Positions 1,856 through 63,314 of a stretch of 64,000 nucleotides of DNA are shown here, one piece after another (the first letter of the stretch is position 1; each line of letters begins with the position of its first letter). Origin of the DNA: a virus (Duplodnaviria; Caudoviricetes); IMG/VR virus record IMGVR_UViG_3300032116_000002, one strand, 5' to 3'. The translations under genes and the position numbers were made by a program. The notes below the pieces were generated by a model that searched no databases, was not told where the DNA came from, and was given only the letters and a program-made list of their open reading frames with translations.

Positions 1856-3403
1856 ATGATATTTGCTTATATAATTCTTTTTACCGCTATAATGCTTAGT
1901 GCTGTAGCAGCTTATTACTCAATAGCAGGACTTACTGCTATTTTTGCTGCGGCTGTACTCCCTGTTATTATTATGGGAGGTACACTAGAGTTAGGAAAAG
2001 TAGTCGCTACAGTATGGCTGCACAATAACTGGAAGAGAATTAATTGGGCATATAAATCATATCTACTACCTGCTATTGTATTCTTAATGCTTTTGACTAG
2101 TATGGGTATCTTTGGCTTTCTATCAAAAGCACATAGTGACCAAAGCTTAGTCAGCGGAGATGCAATGAGTAAGGTTGCAATTTTTGATGAGAAAATTGCT
2201 ACAGAAAAAGATAACATTGCACAATCTAAAAAAGCACTTGAACAAATGAATCAACAAGTTGATCAAATGCTCGGGCGTAGTGACACAGAGCGTGGTGCTG
2301 AACGTGCAGTAAGTATTCGCAAAAACCAAGCGAAAGAACGTGCTGCATTACAAGCAGAAATTACAAAATCACAAAAAATAATTCAAAAGTTACAAGAGGA
2401 ACGTGCACCACTTGCAGCGGAATTTAGAAAAGTGGAGGCTGAAGTTGGACCTATCAAATATATTGCTGCTTTATTATACGGCGACAATCCCGATCAAAAT
2501 ATTTTGGAGCGTGCTGTACGTTGGGTTATTATACTTATTGTTATTGTTTTCGATCCGTTAGCACTATGCTTGATTCTAGCAGGTAATAAGCAAATGGAAT
2601 GGGCACGTGAGGATAAAGAAAAAGCAAAGATGGATGCTGTTGCAGACGATGTTGCTGCAATGAATATCAATGCGGAGCCAGCCGGTGTACAGATACGACC
2701 ATGGACTGAAGAAGAAATTGAGGCATTAAATTCATATGATCCTAATGCGAAAAAGGCTAATGAAGAAATTGCTAAGATTGAAACCGAAGAACCGGTTATT
2801 GATATACCTGAAGAGGTAGCCGAAGAAGTCATTGAAGAACCGGTACAAGAACCTGTACAGGTAGCAGTAGAAGAAAAACCAATTGAAGAAGAAATTCAAG
2901 AAATTTTAGCAAGCAATAATGTAATTACAACCACAGATGATGTACAAGTTGGTGGTACTGAAAACGTTTTACATTTCGACAATTTATTAAAAGAAGCAGC
3001 AACAAGTACAAAACAACCTTTCGTAAGAGTTCAAGATAGTGAGTATGTTGAATTTGAAGGTAAGCGTATGCACGAACGTGTACTACGTAGCCTACATCCT
3101 GAATTTTTCGGTGGGCTTGAAGCAGACAATGAATCAAATAATGGCTTCGGTAGTACCTTCCCTGAATATGCAGTTATGGGAGATTTGTTTATAAGAACAG
3201 ATGTTTTACCAAACCGCGTATTCAAATTCAATAGCAGCAAATGGATAGAAATAAACAAAGAGCATAGCGATAGTTATTTAAATAACAACAAATATCTAAG
3301 TTATCTAGTTGATAAGATTAGCACAGGTGAAGTTGATCCTGAAATACTCACTGTAGCAGAGCAGGATTGTGTTGCTAATTTTATAAGAAATCCAAAGGCT
3401 TGA
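1856..3403 (+). CDS. membrane-anchored coiled-coil protein with acidic linker
   Basis: N-terminal TM helices, coiled coil, further TM, Glu-rich linker; GATAAATA late-type motif at 1841. Confidence 0.8.
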   Translation: MIFAYIILFTAIMLSAVAAYYSIAGLTAIFAAAVLPVIIMGGTLELGKVVATVWLHNNWKRINWAYKSYLLPAIVFLMLLTSMGIFGFLSKAHSDQSLVSGDAMSKVAIFDEKIATEKDNIAQSKKALEQMNQQVDQMLGRSDTERGAERAVSIRKNQAKERAALQAEITKSQKIIQKLQEERAPLAAEFRKVEAEVGPIKYIAALLYGDNPDQNILERAVRWVIILIVIVFDPLALCLILAGNKQMEWAREDKEKAKMDAVADDVAAMNINAEPAGVQIRPWTEEEIEALNSYDPNAKKANEEIAKIETEEPVIDIPEEVAEEVIEEPVQEPVQVAVEEKPIEEEIQEILASNNVITTTDDVQVGGTENVLHFDNLLKEAATSTKQPFVRVQDSEYVEFEGKRMHERVLRSLHPEFFGGLEADNESNNGFGSTFPEYAVMGDLFIRTDVLPNRVFKFNSSKWIEINKEHSDSYLNNNKYLSYLVDKISTGEVDPEILTVAEQDCVANFIRNPKA

Positions 3404-3428
3404 CAATAAATCCATAGTGTAGTATAGT
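3400..3428 (+). promoter_or_regulatory. early sigma70-type promoter
   Basis: TTGACAATAAATC, 17-bp spacer, TATAGT. Confidence 0.8.
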
Positions 3429-3461
3429 ATCATTTCATCAACTACTTTTTGAGGTATTCAA

Positions 3462-4121
3462 ATGAACAAACGTATTTTGGTCGTACTTATTGCAGGCGTA
3501 TTGGCTGGCTGTGGTACATTCGGTAGTAACAAAGGTATCACGCCTGCTGCTGATGCAGTCACACCAATCAAAGAAACAAAAATCACTACTACCTTTACCG
3601 ACGAAGGTGTTAAACTACATTACACTATGTCAGGCAAACTCGAACGAATCGAAGTTGTAGGTGTTGCTCCTGCTTGGAAGCGCAATCATGACATTCTAGC
3701 AGAAGCCGATGCTATGGATAAACTTGTCAAGTTTGTGCATGGCAAAAATGTATCAAGCGACCGTCGCATTAAAATTATTAGCAAGGCTTTGGATCAGGCT
3801 AGCGACCTAACTAGCAACAAGTTTTCAAGCAACGAAGGTGCTGTTGATACTGACAGTAAGGAACTAGAAGCCGAATTGAAAAACGATTCTGGTGAAACAT
3901 CACAACGCCTTAACACTGCCAAACGTAATGCACGTATCGTTGATGAAACAACGGTAAATGCTATTCAAACAATCACAGCCTCAGGTCGTCTAGTAGGTGT
4001 TCGTAAAATAGGCGATAAGGTTAAGGATGATGGCAAAACGTATGTTGCATACTATCAATGGTCTTTTCAGGACATGGATACTGCAACACAGGTTCGTAAT
4101 GCTATGATGAAAGGTAACTAA
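3462..4121 (+). CDS. lipoprotein
   Basis: Signal peptide with LAGC lipobox. Confidence 0.75.
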   Translation: MNKRILVVLIAGVLAGCGTFGSNKGITPAADAVTPIKETKITTTFTDEGVKLHYTMSGKLERIEVVGVAPAWKRNHDILAEADAMDKLVKFVHGKNVSSDRRIKIISKALDQASDLTSNKFSSNEGAVDTDSKELEAELKNDSGETSQRLNTAKRNARIVDETTVNAIQTITASGRLVGVRKIGDKVKDDGKTYVAYYQWSFQDMDTATQVRNAMMKGN

Positions 4122-6596: not shown

Positions 6597-6666
6597 ATAA
6601 ATACAGTTGTAGATGCCGAATTCGGGTCTACAACTATGTCATTCGCTTATTATAAGGAGACTAAAC
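6597..6666 (+). promoter_or_regulatory. hsp20 leader: TAAATA late-type motif, bulged-G hairpin, SD-overlapping motif
   Basis: ATAAATAC; GTAGAT-G-CC-GAATTC-GG-GTCTAC hairpin; GCTTATTATAAGGAGA; parallels dnaK leader. Confidence 0.6.
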
Positions 6667-7110
6667 ATGACTAATCAAATATCTATTCGTACCTTGGATA
6701 TTCCAAGTATTCACAGATTTGGAATCGGATTCGATTCTATGCTTTATGATCTAGCCCGTCTAGCATCAGCAAATGCTTCAAACTATCCCCCATACAATTT
6801 AGTTAAAACCGATGAAAATAGTTTTGCTATTGAATTGGCTGTTGCTGGATTTAAAGAAGGGGAAATTGATGTATCAGTAGAAAAAAATGTATTGACCATT
6901 AAAGGTTCTAAGAAAGACAGTATACCTGATAACTTTGAGTATCTACATAGAGGTATCAGTCAACGTAATTTTGAACGTACTTTCCCACTAGCAGAGCATA
7001 TTGAAGTTACGGGTGCTTTGGTTCGTGACGGTATGTTAATCATTGATTTGTTCCGTTTGGTTCCCGAATCAGACAAGCCCAAATCTATTGCTATTTCATA
7101 CCTTAAGTAA
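6667..7110 (+). CDS. small heat shock protein Hsp20 (IbpA-like)
   Basis: YPPYNL, IELAVAGF, YLHRGISQRNFERTF, DGML alpha-crystallin motifs; start moved to ATG 6667 after AAGGAG. Confidence 0.95.
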   Translation: MTNQISIRTLDIPSIHRFGIGFDSMLYDLARLASANASNYPPYNLVKTDENSFAIELAVAGFKEGEIDVSVEKNVLTIKGSKKDSIPDNFEYLHRGISQRNFERTFPLAEHIEVTGALVRDGMLIIDLFRLVPESDKPKSIAISYLK

Positions 7111-52419: not shown

Positions 52420-52439
52420 AATTTATCCTTGTATGTTAG

Positions 52440-52638
52440 TGTAAGGCTACTCGCTCCCACAAGCCCCTTACTGAGTTGTTGCCCTGTCCACTACATTTCT
52501 CTTTTGGTAAGGTGTAGTTCCAACCTACGACTTTTCTGGCACCCATGTAAGCGGGTTCTGAGGCAGATCGTATGCGCCCTGGCTTTCTGGTTTGCCAACC
52601 ACCCCCATTTCATAACGCAGATGGGACTACGGGATACT
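52440..52638 (-). ncRNA. structured ncRNA A (about 200 nt)
   Basis: GC-rich, no credible ORF, multiple hairpins; 17-nt identity with RNA B. Confidence 0.7.
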
Positions 52639-56296: not shown

Positions 56297-58207
56297 TTAA
56301 TTAGTTTCTTTTACTTCTGCGTCTACTACATTAGGATCACCTTCTGCTTTTTGTGCGTTTGGATCACCTTCTGGCATTTCTTTATTGCGCTTTTCTGCTT
56401 CATATGTAATAGTTTTGCGATATAGTTCACCGAGTTCTTCAGTGGCTTTGTCCATATCTTCTTTACTATCACCTTTAGCAACTTCTTTGTATTTACTAAT
56501 ACTATCAAGCATTGAAGTTTTTTCTTCTTCAGGAATATAGCCTTCAAGATTTTCAATTTGCTTTTCAAGCATACCAATTTGATTATCCAAACTGTTACGT
56601 GCTTGTACAAGTTCTACAACCTTTTTATCTTCCTCAGCATTTAACTCAGCGTCTTTGACCATTTGTTCAATTTCTTGTTCAGATAATCCAGAACTTGCTT
56701 TGATAGTAATTTGCTTTTCTTTGTTAGTTTTCTTGTCAAGAGCCTTAACTGATAGTATACCATTTGCGTCAATGTCAAATGTTACTTCAATCTGTGGCAT
56801 GCCTCTTGGTGCAGGATCAATGCCCTCTAGTGTAAACTCACCTAGTCCTTTGTTACCTACAACAATTTCACGTTCACCTTGGAAAACTTTAATTGTAACA
56901 GCAGGCTGATTATCGTCTGCTGTACTAAAAGTTTGGCTTGCCTTTGTAGGAATCGTTGTATTCTTTTTGATAAGTTTAGTCATAACACCACCTAGTGTTT
57001 CAATACCTAAACTTAAAGGTGTAACATCCAACAACAGAACATCAGTGCGATCACCACCTAAGACTTGACCTTGAAGTGCAGCACCAACTGCAACTGCTTC
57101 ATCAGGGTTTACATCTTTACGAGGTGCCTTACCAAAAAACTTTTCTACTGCTTCTTGTACTCTTGGCATGCGAGTCATACCACCAACAAGAATCACTTCA
57201 TCAATATCACTGATACTTACACCAGCGTCTTTGATTGCAACTTCACAAGGCTTAATGCTACGTTGAATTAACTCTTCAACCAAACCTTCTAATTTAGCAC
57301 GTGTGATTTTAACGTTAAGATGCTTTGGTCCTGTTGCATCAGCAGTGATATAAGGTAAGCTTACATCAGTCTGTGTTGAACTTGATAGTTCAATCTTAGC
57401 ACGTTCTGCTGCATCTTTAAGTCTTTGTAATGCTAATACATCTTTAGTTAAATCTACACCACTTTCTTTTTTGAACTCATCAACTAGATGATCCATAATT
57501 CTTTGGTCAAAATCTTCACCACCTAAAAATGTATCACCGTTAGTTGATAATACTTCAAATTGTTTTTCACCTTCGACATTAGCAATATCAATAATACTAA
57601 TGTCAAATGTTCCACCACCTAAGTCATAGACAGCAATTTTTCGGTCCTTCTTGTCCTGTTTGTCTACACCGTAAGCTAATGCTGCCGCTGTAGGTTCGTT
57701 AATAATACGCAATACTTCCAGACCCGCAATGCGTCCTGCGTCTTTAGTTGCTTGTCTTTGACTATCATTAAAATATGCTGGAACTGTAATAACAGCCTTT
57801 GTGACTTCTTCACCTAAGAAATCTTCTGCTGTCTTTTTCATTTTACGCAAAACTTCAGCACTGATTTGTGGAGGTGCTAGTTTCTTGTCATTCACTTCTA
57901 CCCAAGCATCACCGTTATCTGCTTCTACAATCTTATATGGCATTAGATCGATATCTTTTTGGACTGCTTGTTCTTTGAATTTGCGCCCAATCAATCTCTT
58001 TGATGCATACACCGTGTTCTTTGGATTAGTAACAGCTTGACGCTTAGCTGGCGCGCCAACAACGATTTCACCGTCCTGCATGTAGGCGATAATGCTTGGG
58101 GTAGTTCTTGCACCCTCGCTGTTCTCTAATACTTTTGGATTTTTGCCATCTATGATAGCAACGCATGAATTGGTAGTACCTAGGTCAATACCTATAATCT
58201 TTGACAT
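56297..58207 (-). CDS. dnaK: Hsp70 chaperone DnaK
   Basis: [31 protein letters not shown]. Confidence 0.98.
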
Positions 58208-61483: not shown

Positions 61484-61583
61484 ATTAATCTCCTATTTAA
61501 AATTTCTATCAATTAATGCTAACAACCAAATAACTCCGATAATAACTGCCATTGCCCCATTGTAGTTCTCCTTATAGTTATAT

Positions 61584-61667
61584 TGGTGGGGTGTACTGGG
61601 ATCGAACCAGTCATGTCAAAGACGGCGGATTTACAGTCCACTGCATCACCATTGATGCTTCCACCCC
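61584..61667 (-). tRNA. tRNA-Tyr(GUA)
   Basis: Type II cloverleaf. Confidence 0.92.
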
Positions 61668-61668
61668 A

Positions 61669-61875
61669 TTTAATGCTCTGACAGACCTCGGAGGTAATTA
61701 TACCGCATCAAGCACCGAGTAGTCTCAGTACCATCACACACGGCCTCCACCCTCTCCACGACAGGTCCCGTTCTCGCATTGCCAGCGCACTTTCGGTTTA
61801 AAGTGTACCACCCGTAGTTGTCATACTACTTCTCATCGTGCGGGTCACACTATCTGCTGACTAAGCAGAACGTTC
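61669..61875 (-). ncRNA. structured ncRNA C (about 205 nt) filling the tRNA-Asp/tRNA-Tyr spacer
   Basis: GC-rich, at least 5 hairpins; shares a two-hairpin module with RNAs A and B. Confidence 0.65.
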
Positions 61876-62103: not shown

Positions 62104-62568
62104 TCATCTCACACCCAAATAATGTTTGTTTACATAGCTTTGTATTGCTTGATGACTTACATTACTGATATGCACGCCTGGAGCAACATTACGCCTACCT
62201 GAACTATCAAAGTAATTTCTTGTTTCTATACCATAGACACCATAGTTAACCTGTGCTGTATGATATGCACCAATTGTAACAATAGAGTAGGGCTTATGTT
62301 TTACGTTTTTTAAAACATGTTTAATGCTTTCTGCACCCTTACTATACCCATATAACTGATACTGTTTATTATTTCTATTAATAAACTTTACTGCTAAATG
62401 TGCTTGATTCCAACTATATGTCATTGCACATGCATTCTGCTTTTTTGCATATTGATTAAAGGCACGACTATCAAATAAATCATTGATACCTTTGAAACCA
62501 ATAACGAACTTGTCACAGGCAAAACTGTTCTGTGTTACAAGTAATAAAATAAAAAATAATGTTCTCAT
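62104..62568 (-). CDS. exported small alpha/beta-hydrolase-like protein
   Basis: Signal peptide; GYSKG nucleophile-elbow motif. Confidence 0.65.
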   Translation of the reverse strand: MRTLFFILLLVTQNSFACDKFVIGFKGINDLFDSRAFNQYAKKQNACAMTYSWNQAHLAVKFINRNNKQYQLYGYSKGAESIKHVLKNVKHKPYSIVTIGAYHTAQVNYGVYGIETRNYFDSSGRRNVAPGVHISNVSHQAIQSYVNKHYLGVR

Positions 62569-62584
62569 ATTAGTTTTGTAGCCT

Positions 62585-63118
62585 ATACTATATGCCTAAC
62601 TCAACAGCTTTACACGTGTTTACTGTTTATTGTTTCGGTTACATAACGCCTGCGCCAGCCTCTGTGCTTACAGGCTACAAAATTAATATGCTTAGGCCAC
62701 GCTTTTCCACGGTCGCCCCCAAGCTGGAGTTGTTGCCCTGTCCGAACACTAAAGGACCTTTGCCGCGTAGTGTCCACGCTGCTATGTTGTCTGAAACACC
62801 GGAGACACCACATCGAAATGCAGAGTCTATGTTTCGCTAAAGGTGCCATAGCCACCTGGACTTTATCGTATTACCAAACGCTACTTTCAGGAAAGTAGTA
62901 ACCGGAATCTTGCTTCTTTGATTCGGCGAGCTGTCCTACTTCAAGCAGGCTCACACTGGTCGCCCTGAGGTGAAGCACCTCAGTTACTCTAGATTAATAT
63001 TAATGCTAACAAGGACAGGCCTATTACATGATACCGAAGGCATTACTGTATCAAACCCTTGCTAAACTCTTTTCAGAGACAGAACGCACATTTTCTGTTT
63101 TGTTTTTAATCTTCATTT
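62585..63118 (-). ncRNA. large structured ncRNA B (about 540 nt), GOLLD/ROOL-class candidate
   Basis: Own early promoter; nested long-range helices and many hairpins; no credible long ORF. Confidence 0.72.
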
Positions 63119-63124
63119 GCCGCT

Positions 63125-63153
63125 AGTATAACAGCAAATCGATTTATTGTCAA
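63125..63153 (-). promoter_or_regulatory. early promoter driving ncRNA B
   Basis: TTGACAATAAATC, 17-bp spacer, TATACT. Confidence 0.85.
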
Positions 63154-63157
63154 ACTT

Positions 63158-63234
63158 TGGTGCCTGCTCTTGGAATCGAACCAAGCACCCCCGCGTTATC
63201 AACACGGTGCTCTAACCGAATGAGCTAAGCAGGC
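63158..63234 (-). tRNA. tRNA-Ile(GAU)
   Basis: Cloverleaf. Confidence 0.95.
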
Positions 63235-63238
63235 AAAC

Positions 63239-63314
63239 TGGCACACCCAACCGGATTCGAACCGGTGTATTCACCGTGAAAGGGTGATGTCCTAGGCCTC
63301 TAGACGATGGGTGC
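63239..63314 (-). tRNA. tRNA-Glu(UUC)
   Basis: Cloverleaf. Confidence 0.95.

What the first reader, a model, noticed from the sequence alone, without database searches (positions are those of the whole stretch)
62585..63153. About 540-nt ornate non-coding RNA with its own early promoter (GOLLD/ROOL-class candidate)
Seen: a consensus early promoter (63153-63125) fires into a GC-richer gap with no credible long ORF. Nested long-range helices: UAGGCC 63023-18 with GGCCUA 62698-93, and CUGUCCU 63018-12 with AGGACAG 62937-31. Local hairpins: CUGAGGU/ACCUCAG 62965-83, GAAUC/GAUUC, GGUG/CACC, GUCU/AGAC, AGCCU/AGGCU, AACAG/CUGUU. Established: GOLLD and ROOL are large ornate RNAs found next to tRNA genes in phages and freshwater metagenomes. 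Inference: this is a member of that class or a new one; its size suggests a shortened variant.
Basis: partly seen in the sequence, partly recalled or inferred. Interest (0 to 1): 0.75.

Follow-up and report, generated by a model that had tools for sequence, protein, structure and literature searches.

The report
New structured RNAs in phage tRNA array
The supposed 540-nt "ornate RNA" is really a promoter-driven string of four separate non-coding RNA cassettes in a giant freshwater phage's tRNA array. The central one is a 219-nt pseudoknotted RNA of a previously undescribed, strongly conserved family that is not GOLLD or ROOL.

Summary
The promoter (63153-63125), the GC-rich stretch and the lack of a real ORF are confirmed. 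The stretch is not one 540-nt RNA and matches no Rfam family, including GOLLD and ROOL. Comparison with about 90 viral and metagenomic loci splits it into four independently conserved modules.

- **A** (about 63107-63005): a roughly 100-nt covarying RNA.
- **S** (63004-62908): a hairpin-rich spacer seen only in two close relatives.
- **B** (62907-62689): the core. It has 59 distinct homologues and 97% of cells paired against 34-45% in slid controls. It folds as a multi-helix junction with an H-type pseudoknot, an invariant linker and a 3' hairpin.
- **U** (62688-62569): a 120-nt RNA closed by a helix of about 20 bp.

B nearly always lies in tRNA arrays. It often starts 1-6 nt after a tRNA CCA end or just after a -10 box, and there is one strong copy per complete jumbo-phage genome. 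A diverged paralogue lies at 52635-52439. U always, and B in half of its relatives, carries palindromic loops that change only into other palindromes, which suggests self-association. Function is unknown.

First readers of this scan noted look-alike stretches in tRNA arrays of four other genomes; these notes are unchecked.

The parts
63125..63153 (-). Sigma-70-type promoter, TTGACA / 17 nt / TG-n-TATACT. The predicted start is near 63118.
   Evidence: 11 of 12 matches, TG present. Both hexamers are invariant in five relatives. The start site is inferred from spacing only.
63005..63107 (-). Module A: an independent structured RNA of about 100 nt. It has an A-rich leader, two small hairpins, and a closing helix UUAGCAAGGG/CCUUGUUAG around a GAUAC...GUAUC hairpin.
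   Evidence: Found by nhmmer in 19 or more other loci, upstream of B, directly downstream of B or about 900 nt away. In alignment A9, 8 of 20 pairs show compensatory changes.
62908..63004 (-). Spacer S: hairpin-rich filler. It includes the perfect hairpin 62983-62965 and a GGCGA...UCGCC stem. It is seen only in the window and in L226 and L246.
   Evidence: Other close relatives carry a different segment about 100 nt shorter here.
62689..62907 (-). Module B: the 219-nt core RNA of a new family. It comprises P1, P2, P3, the pseudoknot S1/S2, P5, P6, the linker and P7.
   Evidence: Covariance model R1 scores 198 bits, E 5e-62. There are 59 distinct homologues.
62841..62857 (-). Hairpin S1 ([A]GGUG ... 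CACC[U]). Its loop 62852-62847 (GCUAUG) pairs with 62786-62781 (CAUAGC) to form an H-type pseudoknot.
   Evidence: The closing pair is C-G in 46 sequences and A-U in 13, with no exception. The loop-to-distal helix covaries as AU/CG/GC and UA/GC.
62793..62835 (-). P5, long form, capped by a UUCG tetraloop. This is the variable-length arm of B.
   Evidence: 22 long forms carry UNCG, GNRA or CUUG loops. Another 30 are 12-nt forms with a central 4-nt palindrome.
62725..62743 (-). Invariant segment GGACAGGGYAACAACUC(C)A. Its 5' part (62742-62736) is the proposed 3' strand of P1; the rest is the linker to P7. It is shared by all variant classes, including the paralogue at 52489-52473.
   Evidence: Invariant columns in A5, A6 and A8.
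62690..62724 (-). P7 hairpin: a 7-bp stem, a GG / U(G/A)G internal loop, a short upper stem and a loop CGUGGAAAA.
   Evidence: Compensatory changes in 3 of 7 lower-stem pairs and in the upper stem. Conserved in classes 2 to 4.
62569..62688 (-). Module U: a 120-nt RNA closed by a clamp helix of about 20 bp. The 8-nt palindrome ACACGUGU at 62619-62612 lies at its apex. The 3' arm ends at the ATG of the next ORF.
   Evidence: In A10, 99% of cells are paired against 29-45% in slid controls, and 16 of 32 pairs have double changes. Palindrome variants are listed. Single-sequence z-score is -2.12.
62104..62568 (-). 154-aa ORF with a signal-peptide-like N-terminus, probably co-transcribed. It has no Pfam family.
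   Evidence: It is 45% identical to a hypothetical protein of Limnohabitans phage DC31.
52439..52635 (-). Diverged paralogue of B (class 2). It starts 3 nt after the CCA of tRNA-Cys and lies upstream of a parvulin-type PPIase gene.
   Evidence: R1 scores 27.4 bits, E 2e-7, covering the full model.

Best explanation
The stretch is a polycistronic non-coding transcription unit in the tRNA array of an uncultured jumbo phage, probably from freshwater. Host sigma-70 RNA polymerase starts near 63118 and reads through four independently evolving RNA cassettes (A, S, B, U) into a small secreted-protein gene.

B is the principal element. It is a compact RNA of 190-220 nt with this proposed layout:
- a terminal helix P1;
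- hairpins P2 and P3;
- an H-type pseudoknot, in which the loop of hairpin S1 pairs with a strand about 60 nt downstream;
- a variable arm P5 and hairpin P6;
- an invariant segment and linker, GGACAGGGYAACAACUC(C)A;
- a 3' hairpin P7 with a conserved internal loop and a UGGNAA-type loop.

B behaves like a gene that occupies a tRNA slot. In other phages it begins 1-6 nt after a tRNA CCA end, or about 6 nt after a -10 box. It often ends 1-11 nt before the next tRNA.

Inferred steps: the tRNA-processing nucleases (RNase P for the downstream tRNA, 3' trimming of the upstream one) release B as a stable RNA, and it then acts in trans as a folded RNA. U in this window, and the 12-nt-P5 forms of B in other phages, expose palindromes that change only into other palindromes. 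I therefore infer that these RNAs self-associate by symmetric loop-loop pairing. In kind they would be small counterparts of the RNA-only assemblies formed by OLE, GOLLD and ROOL.

Their cellular target is not known. My guess is the tRNA or translation machinery, or an RNA-directed host defence.
For: Shown:
- No Rfam family matches.
- There are 59 distinct B homologues. Of structure cells, 97.2% are paired against 34-45% when partners are slid. Nineteen pairs have changes on both sides against 3-11 in the slid controls. None of 500 shuffles reaches the observed covariation score (earlier version).
- The pseudoknot closing pair switches C-G to A-U without exception. By eye on A8, the class-2 paralogue keeps the topology with different letters (UACGAU loop against AUCGUA).
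- G-U pairs fall on the minus strand only.
- The ORF is broken in homologues.
- Of 63 copies, 61 lie within 3 kb of tRNAs. Fourteen start 1-6 nt after a tRNA and 14 end 1-11 nt before one.
- Promoters lie at a fixed 6-nt distance from UCCGG in seven or more loci.
- Complete genomes of 355, 214 and 163 kb each hold one strong copy, and the two largest also a weak second one.
- B was not found in 151 sampled Burkholderiales genomes, three MAGs or 50,697 phage records.
- Modules A and U are separately supported.
- All 30 twelve-nt P5 forms (nine distinct sequences) carry ACGU, UCGA, CUAG or UGCA at loop positions 3-6.
- All 20 distinct U copies carry a 6-12-nt palindrome at the apex, in eight variants.
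- The same signature was used as evidence for intermolecular kissing loops in OLE and GOLLD (PMC12286853).
Against: - There are no expression data, so the transcript ends, stability and processing are all inferred.
- In this window B is flanked by neither a tRNA nor a promoter, so how its ends form here is unknown.
- The window's own B has a UUCG-capped P5 without a palindromic loop, so dimerisation of this copy is unsupported.
- P1 and the linker are invariant, so their pairing is untested by covariation. Two sequences give conflicting hints about the register of P1.
- Palindromes could act at the DNA level, as protein sites.
- Sequences are related by descent, so shuffle statistics overstate significance.
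Confidence: 0.7

Rival explanations
1. One reading: one RNA of about 540 nt, of the GOLLD/ROOL class or a shortened variant, folded by nested long-range helices.
For: One promoter may drive the whole stretch, since no terminator is predicted inside it. B is followed directly by U or a U-like cassette in at least 14 of 59 loci. A true GOLLD sits in one related array, L253.
Against: No GOLLD or ROOL match appears at E<=10 or anywhere in the 118-kb record. A, B and U occur apart and in other orders. B is bounded by tRNAs on both sides in several phages. The proposed long-range partners are used in local covarying helices. Close relatives replace about 200 nt of the 5' part by an unrelated segment of about 100 nt.
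Confidence: 0.05
2. B is a ribozyme, either self-cleaving or a processing enzyme, that helps mature the tRNA array. One possibility is that it cuts at its own 5' edge just after the upstream tRNA's CCA, as theta ribozymes are proposed to do.
For: More than 60 invariant positions are concentrated in junctions, around a pseudoknot. That pattern is typical of catalytic or ligand-binding RNAs. Fourteen copies start 1-6 nt after a tRNA CCA. Theta ribozymes next to phage tRNAs are a precedent (PMC10879173).
Against: No known ribozyme family matches. Many copies start at a promoter or lie far from any tRNA, as in this window. The upstream tRNAs encode CCA, whereas only 4.5% of theta-associated tRNAs do, and a 2',3'-cyclic phosphate product would block charging (general knowledge). 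The spacing to CCA varies.
Confidence: 0.12
3. The stretch is a cis-acting leader. B and/or U would be a 5'-UTR regulator (a riboswitch or an RNase III processing signal) for the 154-aa gene. The clamp of U would hide or expose the start codon.
For: The 3' arm of U ends exactly at the ATG, there is no Shine-Dalgarno sequence, and the roughly 20-bp clamp would suit RNase III. U and this ORF travel together in the closest relatives.
Against: In L100, L101, L305 and L069, U is not followed by an ATG. B is mostly followed by tRNAs or other cassettes. The palindromic apex is not explained. No terminator or anti-terminator alternative was found.
Confidence: 0.08
4. The cassettes are selfish or DNA-level elements, such as miniature mobile repeats or targets of homing or restriction enzymes. 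The RNA itself would have no function.
For: The cassettes shuffle between contexts. Stem-clamped inserts appear between B and U in L002 and L005. Palindromes are typical protein sites.
Against: There is one strong copy of B per genome rather than many. Compensatory changes preserve pairing, with G-U only on the transcribed strand, and include a pseudoknot. The palindromes differ in sequence while keeping self-complementarity, which does not fit a sequence-specific protein site.
Confidence: 0.04
5. The region encodes small proteins: the 81-aa ORF 62855-62610 on the minus strand, or the 82-aa ORF 62592-62840 on the plus strand.
For: Both ORFs are open in the window.
Against: Homologues have an in-frame TAA in short-P5 forms, 1-nt indels inside otherwise invariant sequence, and a roughly 30-nt length difference. 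A 110-nt insert splits the ORF in L002 and L005. The substitution pattern follows base pairs, not codons.
Confidence: 0.01

Closest known systems
GOLLD RNA (Rfam RF02032) and ROOL RNA (RF03087)
   Same: Complex, pseudoknotted non-coding RNAs of unknown function, encoded by phages next to tRNA islands (PMC12286853). Homo-oligomerisation there was supported by palindromic loop covariation, and a like signature is seen here in U and in short-P5 forms of B. A real GOLLD lies 1 kb from the B copy of locus L253.
   Different: No sequence or structure match. B is 190-220 nt and U about 120 nt, against about 600-800 nt or more. The architecture differs. No multimer has been shown.
Stable RNAs of the phage T4 tRNA cluster (species 1 and 2, RNA C/D); recalled from memory
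   Same: Small RNAs of unknown function that occupy slots between tRNA genes, are co-transcribed with them and are released by tRNA-processing enzymes.
   Different: B has no detectable similarity to any deposited phage genome by blastn. It is larger and pseudoknotted. Its processing here is only inferred.
HDV-like theta ribozymes next to phage tRNAs (PMC10879173)
   Same: A structured RNA placed directly 3' of phage tRNA genes.
   Different: Theta ribozymes are minimal HDV-like folds in gut phages, and only 4.5% of their tRNAs encode CCA. B is three times larger, has no HDV-family match, follows CCA-encoding tRNAs and also occurs away from tRNAs.
   Same: Apical loops carry 4-8-nt palindromes that are replaced only by other palindromes (U; B). 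This is the pattern expected for symmetric loop-loop pairing between two copies.
   Different: No experimental evidence here. phi29 pRNA uses two complementary, non-palindromic loops. The window's own B lacks the palindromic loop.

Membership tests
GOLLD (RF02032) | Scores at or above the Rfam gathering threshold (150 bits) with the family covariance model | tested here: not met
   No match at E<=10 in 62400-63300, none in the window at gathering score, and none in the 118-kb record at E<=1. Positive control: L253:1711-2173 scores 215.5 bits.
GOLLD (RF02032) | Very large RNA (many members over 800 nt) with a universally conserved 3' region | tested here: not met
   The conserved units are 219 nt (B), about 120 nt (U) and about 100 nt (A), and they occur separately.
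GOLLD / ROOL | Encoded by phages or prophages near tRNA islands | tested here: met
   Of 63 B copies, 61 lie within 3 kb of tRNAs. The window has 24 or more tRNA genes.
ROOL (RF03087) | Scores at or above the Rfam gathering threshold (99.1 bits) | tested here: not met
   No match. Caveat: no positive control for ROOL matched.
HDV-like / theta ribozymes | Minimal nested double-pseudoknot HDV fold recognised by the HDV family models, placed 3' of tRNAs that mostly lack an encoded CCA | tested here: not met
   No HDV-family match at E<=10. Upstream tRNAs end in an encoded CCA. Cleavage itself is not testable here.
Any Rfam 15 family (4227 models) | A match of A, S, B or U to a curated model | tested here: not met
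   Only the flanking tRNAs and chance-level hits appear in 62400-63300 at E<=10. The same holds for B copies in 20 related loci.
Self-associating RNAs with symmetric kissing loops | An exposed self-complementary loop sequence that covaries only between palindromes | tested here: met
   U: eight palindrome variants in 20 distinct copies, including the window's ACACGUGU. B: ACGU, UCGA, CUAG or UGCA in all 30 twelve-nt P5 forms. This is not met by the window's own B, which has a UUCG cap.
Self-associating RNAs with symmetric kissing loops | Physical dimer or oligomer formation | not testable with these tools
   Needs native gels, SEC-MALS, mass photometry or cryo-EM.
Stable RNAs of phage tRNA clusters (T4 RNA C/D type) | Co-transcribed with tRNAs and released by RNase P and 3' trimming | not testable with these tools
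   The positions fit: 14 copies abut a tRNA upstream and 14 abut one downstream. No transcript data are available.

The most novel reading that the evidence does not exclude
The tRNA arrays of these jumbo phages encode a toolkit of small RNA-only building blocks (B, U, A and stem-clamped cassettes). They would be cut out by the tRNA-processing machinery and assemble through palindromic kissing loops into defined homo-oligomers. That would make them a miniature, modular counterpart of the GOLLD/ROOL nanocages. B's invariant pseudoknotted core would provide a new catalytic or tRNA/ribosome-binding activity.
Probability: 0.25. Interest if true: 0.85.

Novelty: new variant of a known kind. Interest (0 to 1): 0.66.

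Why it matters
Large structured RNAs next to phage tRNA genes (GOLLD, ROOL) are among the most striking RNAs whose function is unknown. They were recently shown to form RNA-only cages. This work defines at least three further families from the same genomic niche that are not in Rfam. Each has clear boundaries, a testable secondary structure that includes a pseudoknot, and sequence signatures of self-association.

At 120-220 nt they are small enough for routine in vitro transcription, chemical probing, native gels and cryo-EM. They may therefore be an easier route to what tRNA-island RNAs do during infection. The work also shows that gaps in phage tRNA arrays can be dense mosaics of separate RNA genes, which matters for annotating huge phage genomes.

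Tried and rejected
- **Rfam.** Searches at the gathering score and at E<=10 found nothing on the stretch.
- **Folding energy.** MFE z-scores of the whole stretch and of B alone are not significant, so folding energy was dropped as evidence.
- **Deposited phages.** blastn of the 592 nt against 50,697 phage records gave no match.
- **Upstream ORF.** Related loci sought through the upstream 137-aa ORF gave none.
- **14-mer scan.** It returned mostly chance hits and had to be filtered with nhmmer.
- **Gapped-pattern scans.** All 120 genome hits were chance matches in GC-rich bacteria, so absence from bacteria is not established by that route.
- **Model R1.** It found nothing in three MAGs, 151 Burkholderiales genomes or Limnohabitans phage DC31.
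- **Partner protein.** Clustering ORFs within 5 kb of 59 copies found no recurrent real protein. The top clusters are spurious ORFs that overlap the RNA.
- **GOLLD co-occurrence.** A Rfam scan of ten further loci found no GOLLD, so co-occurrence is rare.
- **Literature.** Searches by sequence words and by topic found no description. The supplement of the 10,000-motif viral catalogue is not held.
- **Comparisons by eye, all dropped.**
  - RNase P CR-I/CR-V and P4: the would-be partner is the covarying P7.
  - T-box and T-loop motifs: the loop UGGNA fits only loosely.
  - CsrA GGA sites and rrn boxA (UAACAA).
  - Group II domain 5.
- **Linker pairing.** Mutual-information scanning found no partner for the invariant linker.
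- **P1 register.** It could not be settled.

Full report
**Setting.** The window is the reverse strand of positions 20805-84804 of a 117.8-kb IMG/VR virus record. CheckV rates the record about 33% complete. The minus strand between 52 and 63.5 kb carries 24 tRNA genes by ARAGORN and 27 Rfam tRNA matches. DnaK and a parvulin-type PPIase lie among them. The only cultured relative found for a neighbouring gene is Limnohabitans phage DC31 from freshwater. Complete relatives that carry the same RNA have genomes of 355, 214 and 163 kb. The window therefore comes from an uncultured jumbo phage, probably from freshwater.

**Checking the observation.**
- The promoter is real by consensus: TTGACA, 17 nt, TG-n-TATACT at 63153-63125. 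It is invariant in five related contigs.
- The stretch is GC-rich, 0.44-0.50 against 0.30-0.36 in the flanks. It holds only ORFs of 82 aa or less.
- Folding energy is not better than shuffled sequence: z is -1.38 for 557 nt and -0.43 for the core. The hairpins alone are not evidence.
- Rfam gives nothing on 62400-63300 even at E<=10 apart from the flanking tRNAs. GOLLD and ROOL are absent from the whole record.

**Finding relatives.**
- The downstream 154-aa ORF led to five viral contigs. There the non-coding DNA is better conserved (about 90%) than the gene (85%), but only from 62911 downstream. The 5' 200 nt are replaced by about 100 nt of different sequence. Two contigs carry a 110-nt insert after 62689.
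- Pattern scans of IMG/VR and of metagenome contigs, filtered with nhmmer, gave about 90 loci.
- These loci show that the stretch is a mosaic of modules A, S, B and U.

**Module B (62907-62689) is the core.** Fifty-nine sequences under 97% identical align over 190-220 nt with sharp borders.

*Non-coding status.*
- Short forms have an in-frame TAA.
- About half lack one C inside an otherwise invariant run.
- One arm differs by about 30 nt between forms.

*Hand-curated structure* (window coordinates are in the parts list):
- P1;
- P2;
- P3;
- hairpin S1, whose loop pairs with a distal strand (S2);
- P5;
- P6;
- the linker;
- P7.

*Covariation support.*
- On alignment A6 the structure has 97.2% of cells paired, against 34-45% when partners are slid.
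- Nineteen pairs have changes on both sides, against 3-11 in the slid controls.
- None of 500 shuffles reaches the observed covariation score (an earlier version is).

*Pseudoknot.*
- A mutual-information scan revealed it. The S1 closing pair is C-G in 46 sequences and A-U in 13, without exception.
- The S1 loop GCUAUG pairs with CAUAGC and covaries as AU/CG/GC and UA/GC.

*Limits.*
- G-U pairs occur only on the minus strand, so selection acts on the RNA.
- P1 and the linker GGACAGGGYAACAACUC(C)A never vary, so their pairing is untested.

**Model search.**
- A covariance model, R1, finds one strong copy in the window (198 bits).
- It also finds a diverged full-length copy at 52635-52439 (27 bits, E 2e-7). 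That copy starts 3 nt after the CCA of tRNA-Cys.
- Similar weak second copies, about 190 nt or only about 87 nt long, exist in other loci.
- All share the invariant segment and linker plus P7. By eye on A8, the 190-nt class keeps the pseudoknot with other letters.
The model confirms it.

**Genomic behaviour of B.**
- Of 63 copies, 61 have tRNAs within 3 kb, often 10-20 of them.
- Fourteen begin 1-6 nt after a tRNA that ends in an encoded CCA. Fourteen end 1-11 nt before the next tRNA. Several do both.
- In at least seven loci a TTGAC(A)/TA(C/T)AAT-type promoter sits with its -10 box exactly 6 nt before UCCGG.
- So the 5' end of the RNA is at P1, whether made by initiation or by processing.
- Complete genomes hold one strong copy each.
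- B was not found in 50,697 deposited phage genomes, in phage DC31, or in 154 betaproteobacterial genomes.
- No protein gene recurs beside it.

**Modules A, S and U.**
- *Module A* (about 63107-63005) is found in 19 or more loci: upstream of B, immediately downstream of it, or about 900 nt away, and often just before tRNA-Glu. Eight of its 20 predicted pairs show compensatory changes.
- *Module U* (62688-62569) has 99% of cells paired against 29-45% in controls. Sixteen of 32 pairs have double changes, most of them in a terminal clamp of about 20 bp.
- U ends at the ATG of the 154-aa ORF here. In other loci no ATG follows, so it is not simply a leader.
- *Spacer S* (63004-62908) is seen only in the two nearest relatives.

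- Both long-range helices fail. GGCCUA is the 3' strand of P7. UAGGCC/CUGUCCU lies in A's own closing helix, where GGCC is not conserved.
- Four local hairpins survive, as listed in the observation check.

**Palindromes.**
- P5 of B comes in two kinds.
  - Twenty-two long forms are capped by UNCG, GNRA or CUUG tetraloops. The window's copy has UUCG.
  - Thirty are 12-nt forms whose loop positions 3-6 are always ACGU, UCGA, CUAG or UGCA.
- The apex of U always carries a 6-12-nt palindrome, in eight variants including CCGGCCGG, CCAGCUGG, CUAGCUAG, CCUGCAGG and CCUCGAGG. The window has ACACGUGU at 62619-62612.
- Adjacent central nucleotides cannot pair within one hairpin. The same pattern was taken as support for intermolecular kissing loops in OLE and GOLLD (PMC12286853).
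- As a rough estimate, four independent 4-nt palindromes at a fixed place have a chance probability near 1e-5, and the U series far less. Descent among sequences weakens these figures.

**Interpretation.**
- Shown: the stretch is a set of conserved, strand-specific, structured, non-coding RNA genes in tRNA-array slots. The main one belongs to a family absent from Rfam 15 and from the literature I could search.
- Inferred: release by tRNA-processing enzymes, stability, action in trans and self-association.
- Unknown: the target. The many invariant junction nucleotides around a pseudoknot would also suit a ribozyme or a ligand pocket. I rate a processing ribozyme at about 0.12.
- The nearest known things in kind are GOLLD and ROOL (one true GOLLD lies in the array of L253), the T4 tRNA-cluster stable RNAs, and theta ribozymes. 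Membership of each tested family fails.

**Earlier notes of this scan.** First readers flagged look-alike GC-rich, ORF-free stretches in the tRNA arrays of four other genomes. These are unchecked notes and I did not use them as evidence.

Noticed in passing
window 52439-52635 (-): A diverged paralogue of the core RNA lies 3 nt after tRNA-Cys. It shares the invariant GGACAGGGCAACAACUCAG segment and the P7 hairpin. A 90-aa parvulin-type PPIase gene follows at 52419-52147.
   Followed up: yes
window 61500-61875 (-): A second GC-rich (0.52-0.54), ORF-poor stretch lies between tRNA-Lys and tRNA-Asp. Reverse-strand ORF translations look tRNA-like (GFEP, GIEP), so there may be uncalled tRNA-like genes or further RNA cassettes.
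   Followed up: no
L253:1711-2173 (+): A bona fide GOLLD RNA (215.5 bits) with an embedded tRNA lies in the same array as a B copy (3245-3432), a mini-B (3588-3674) and a U copy (3673-3799).
   Followed up: partly
L002:3744-3879, L005:3793-3879; also upstream of the promoter in L003, L004, L005 and L006: Inserts of about 65-135 nt are bracketed by the inverted repeat UAUUGAAGCAC ... GUGUUUCAAUA (stem-clamped cassettes). One in L005 has a GGTTCGATTCC T-arm-like core. They sit between B and U, or just before promoters, and B often starts right after CAAUAUGG.
   Followed up: partly
window 6607-6672 (+): A match to the Rfam ROSE_3 RNA thermometer (53.7 bits; gathering score 43) overlaps the start of a 165-aa ORF (6613-7110). 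A heat-shock-type thermometer in a phage that also encodes DnaK is unusual.
   Followed up: no
window 56297-58207 (-): A full-length Hsp70/DnaK gene (850 bits to PF00012) is embedded in the tRNA array.
   Followed up: partly
L320:1121-1319 (+): A group I intron match (61.6 bits; gathering score 50) lies in a related array, about 750 nt downstream of its B copy.
   Followed up: no
L030:9221-9270, L229:3636-3685, L092:8174-8223: A further recurrent cassette follows B. It begins UUAAUUGUGUUAUUAUGGAAAAUUCCAGUG and has a U-like 5' arm, so B-then-U-like adjacency may be commoner than counted.
   Followed up: no
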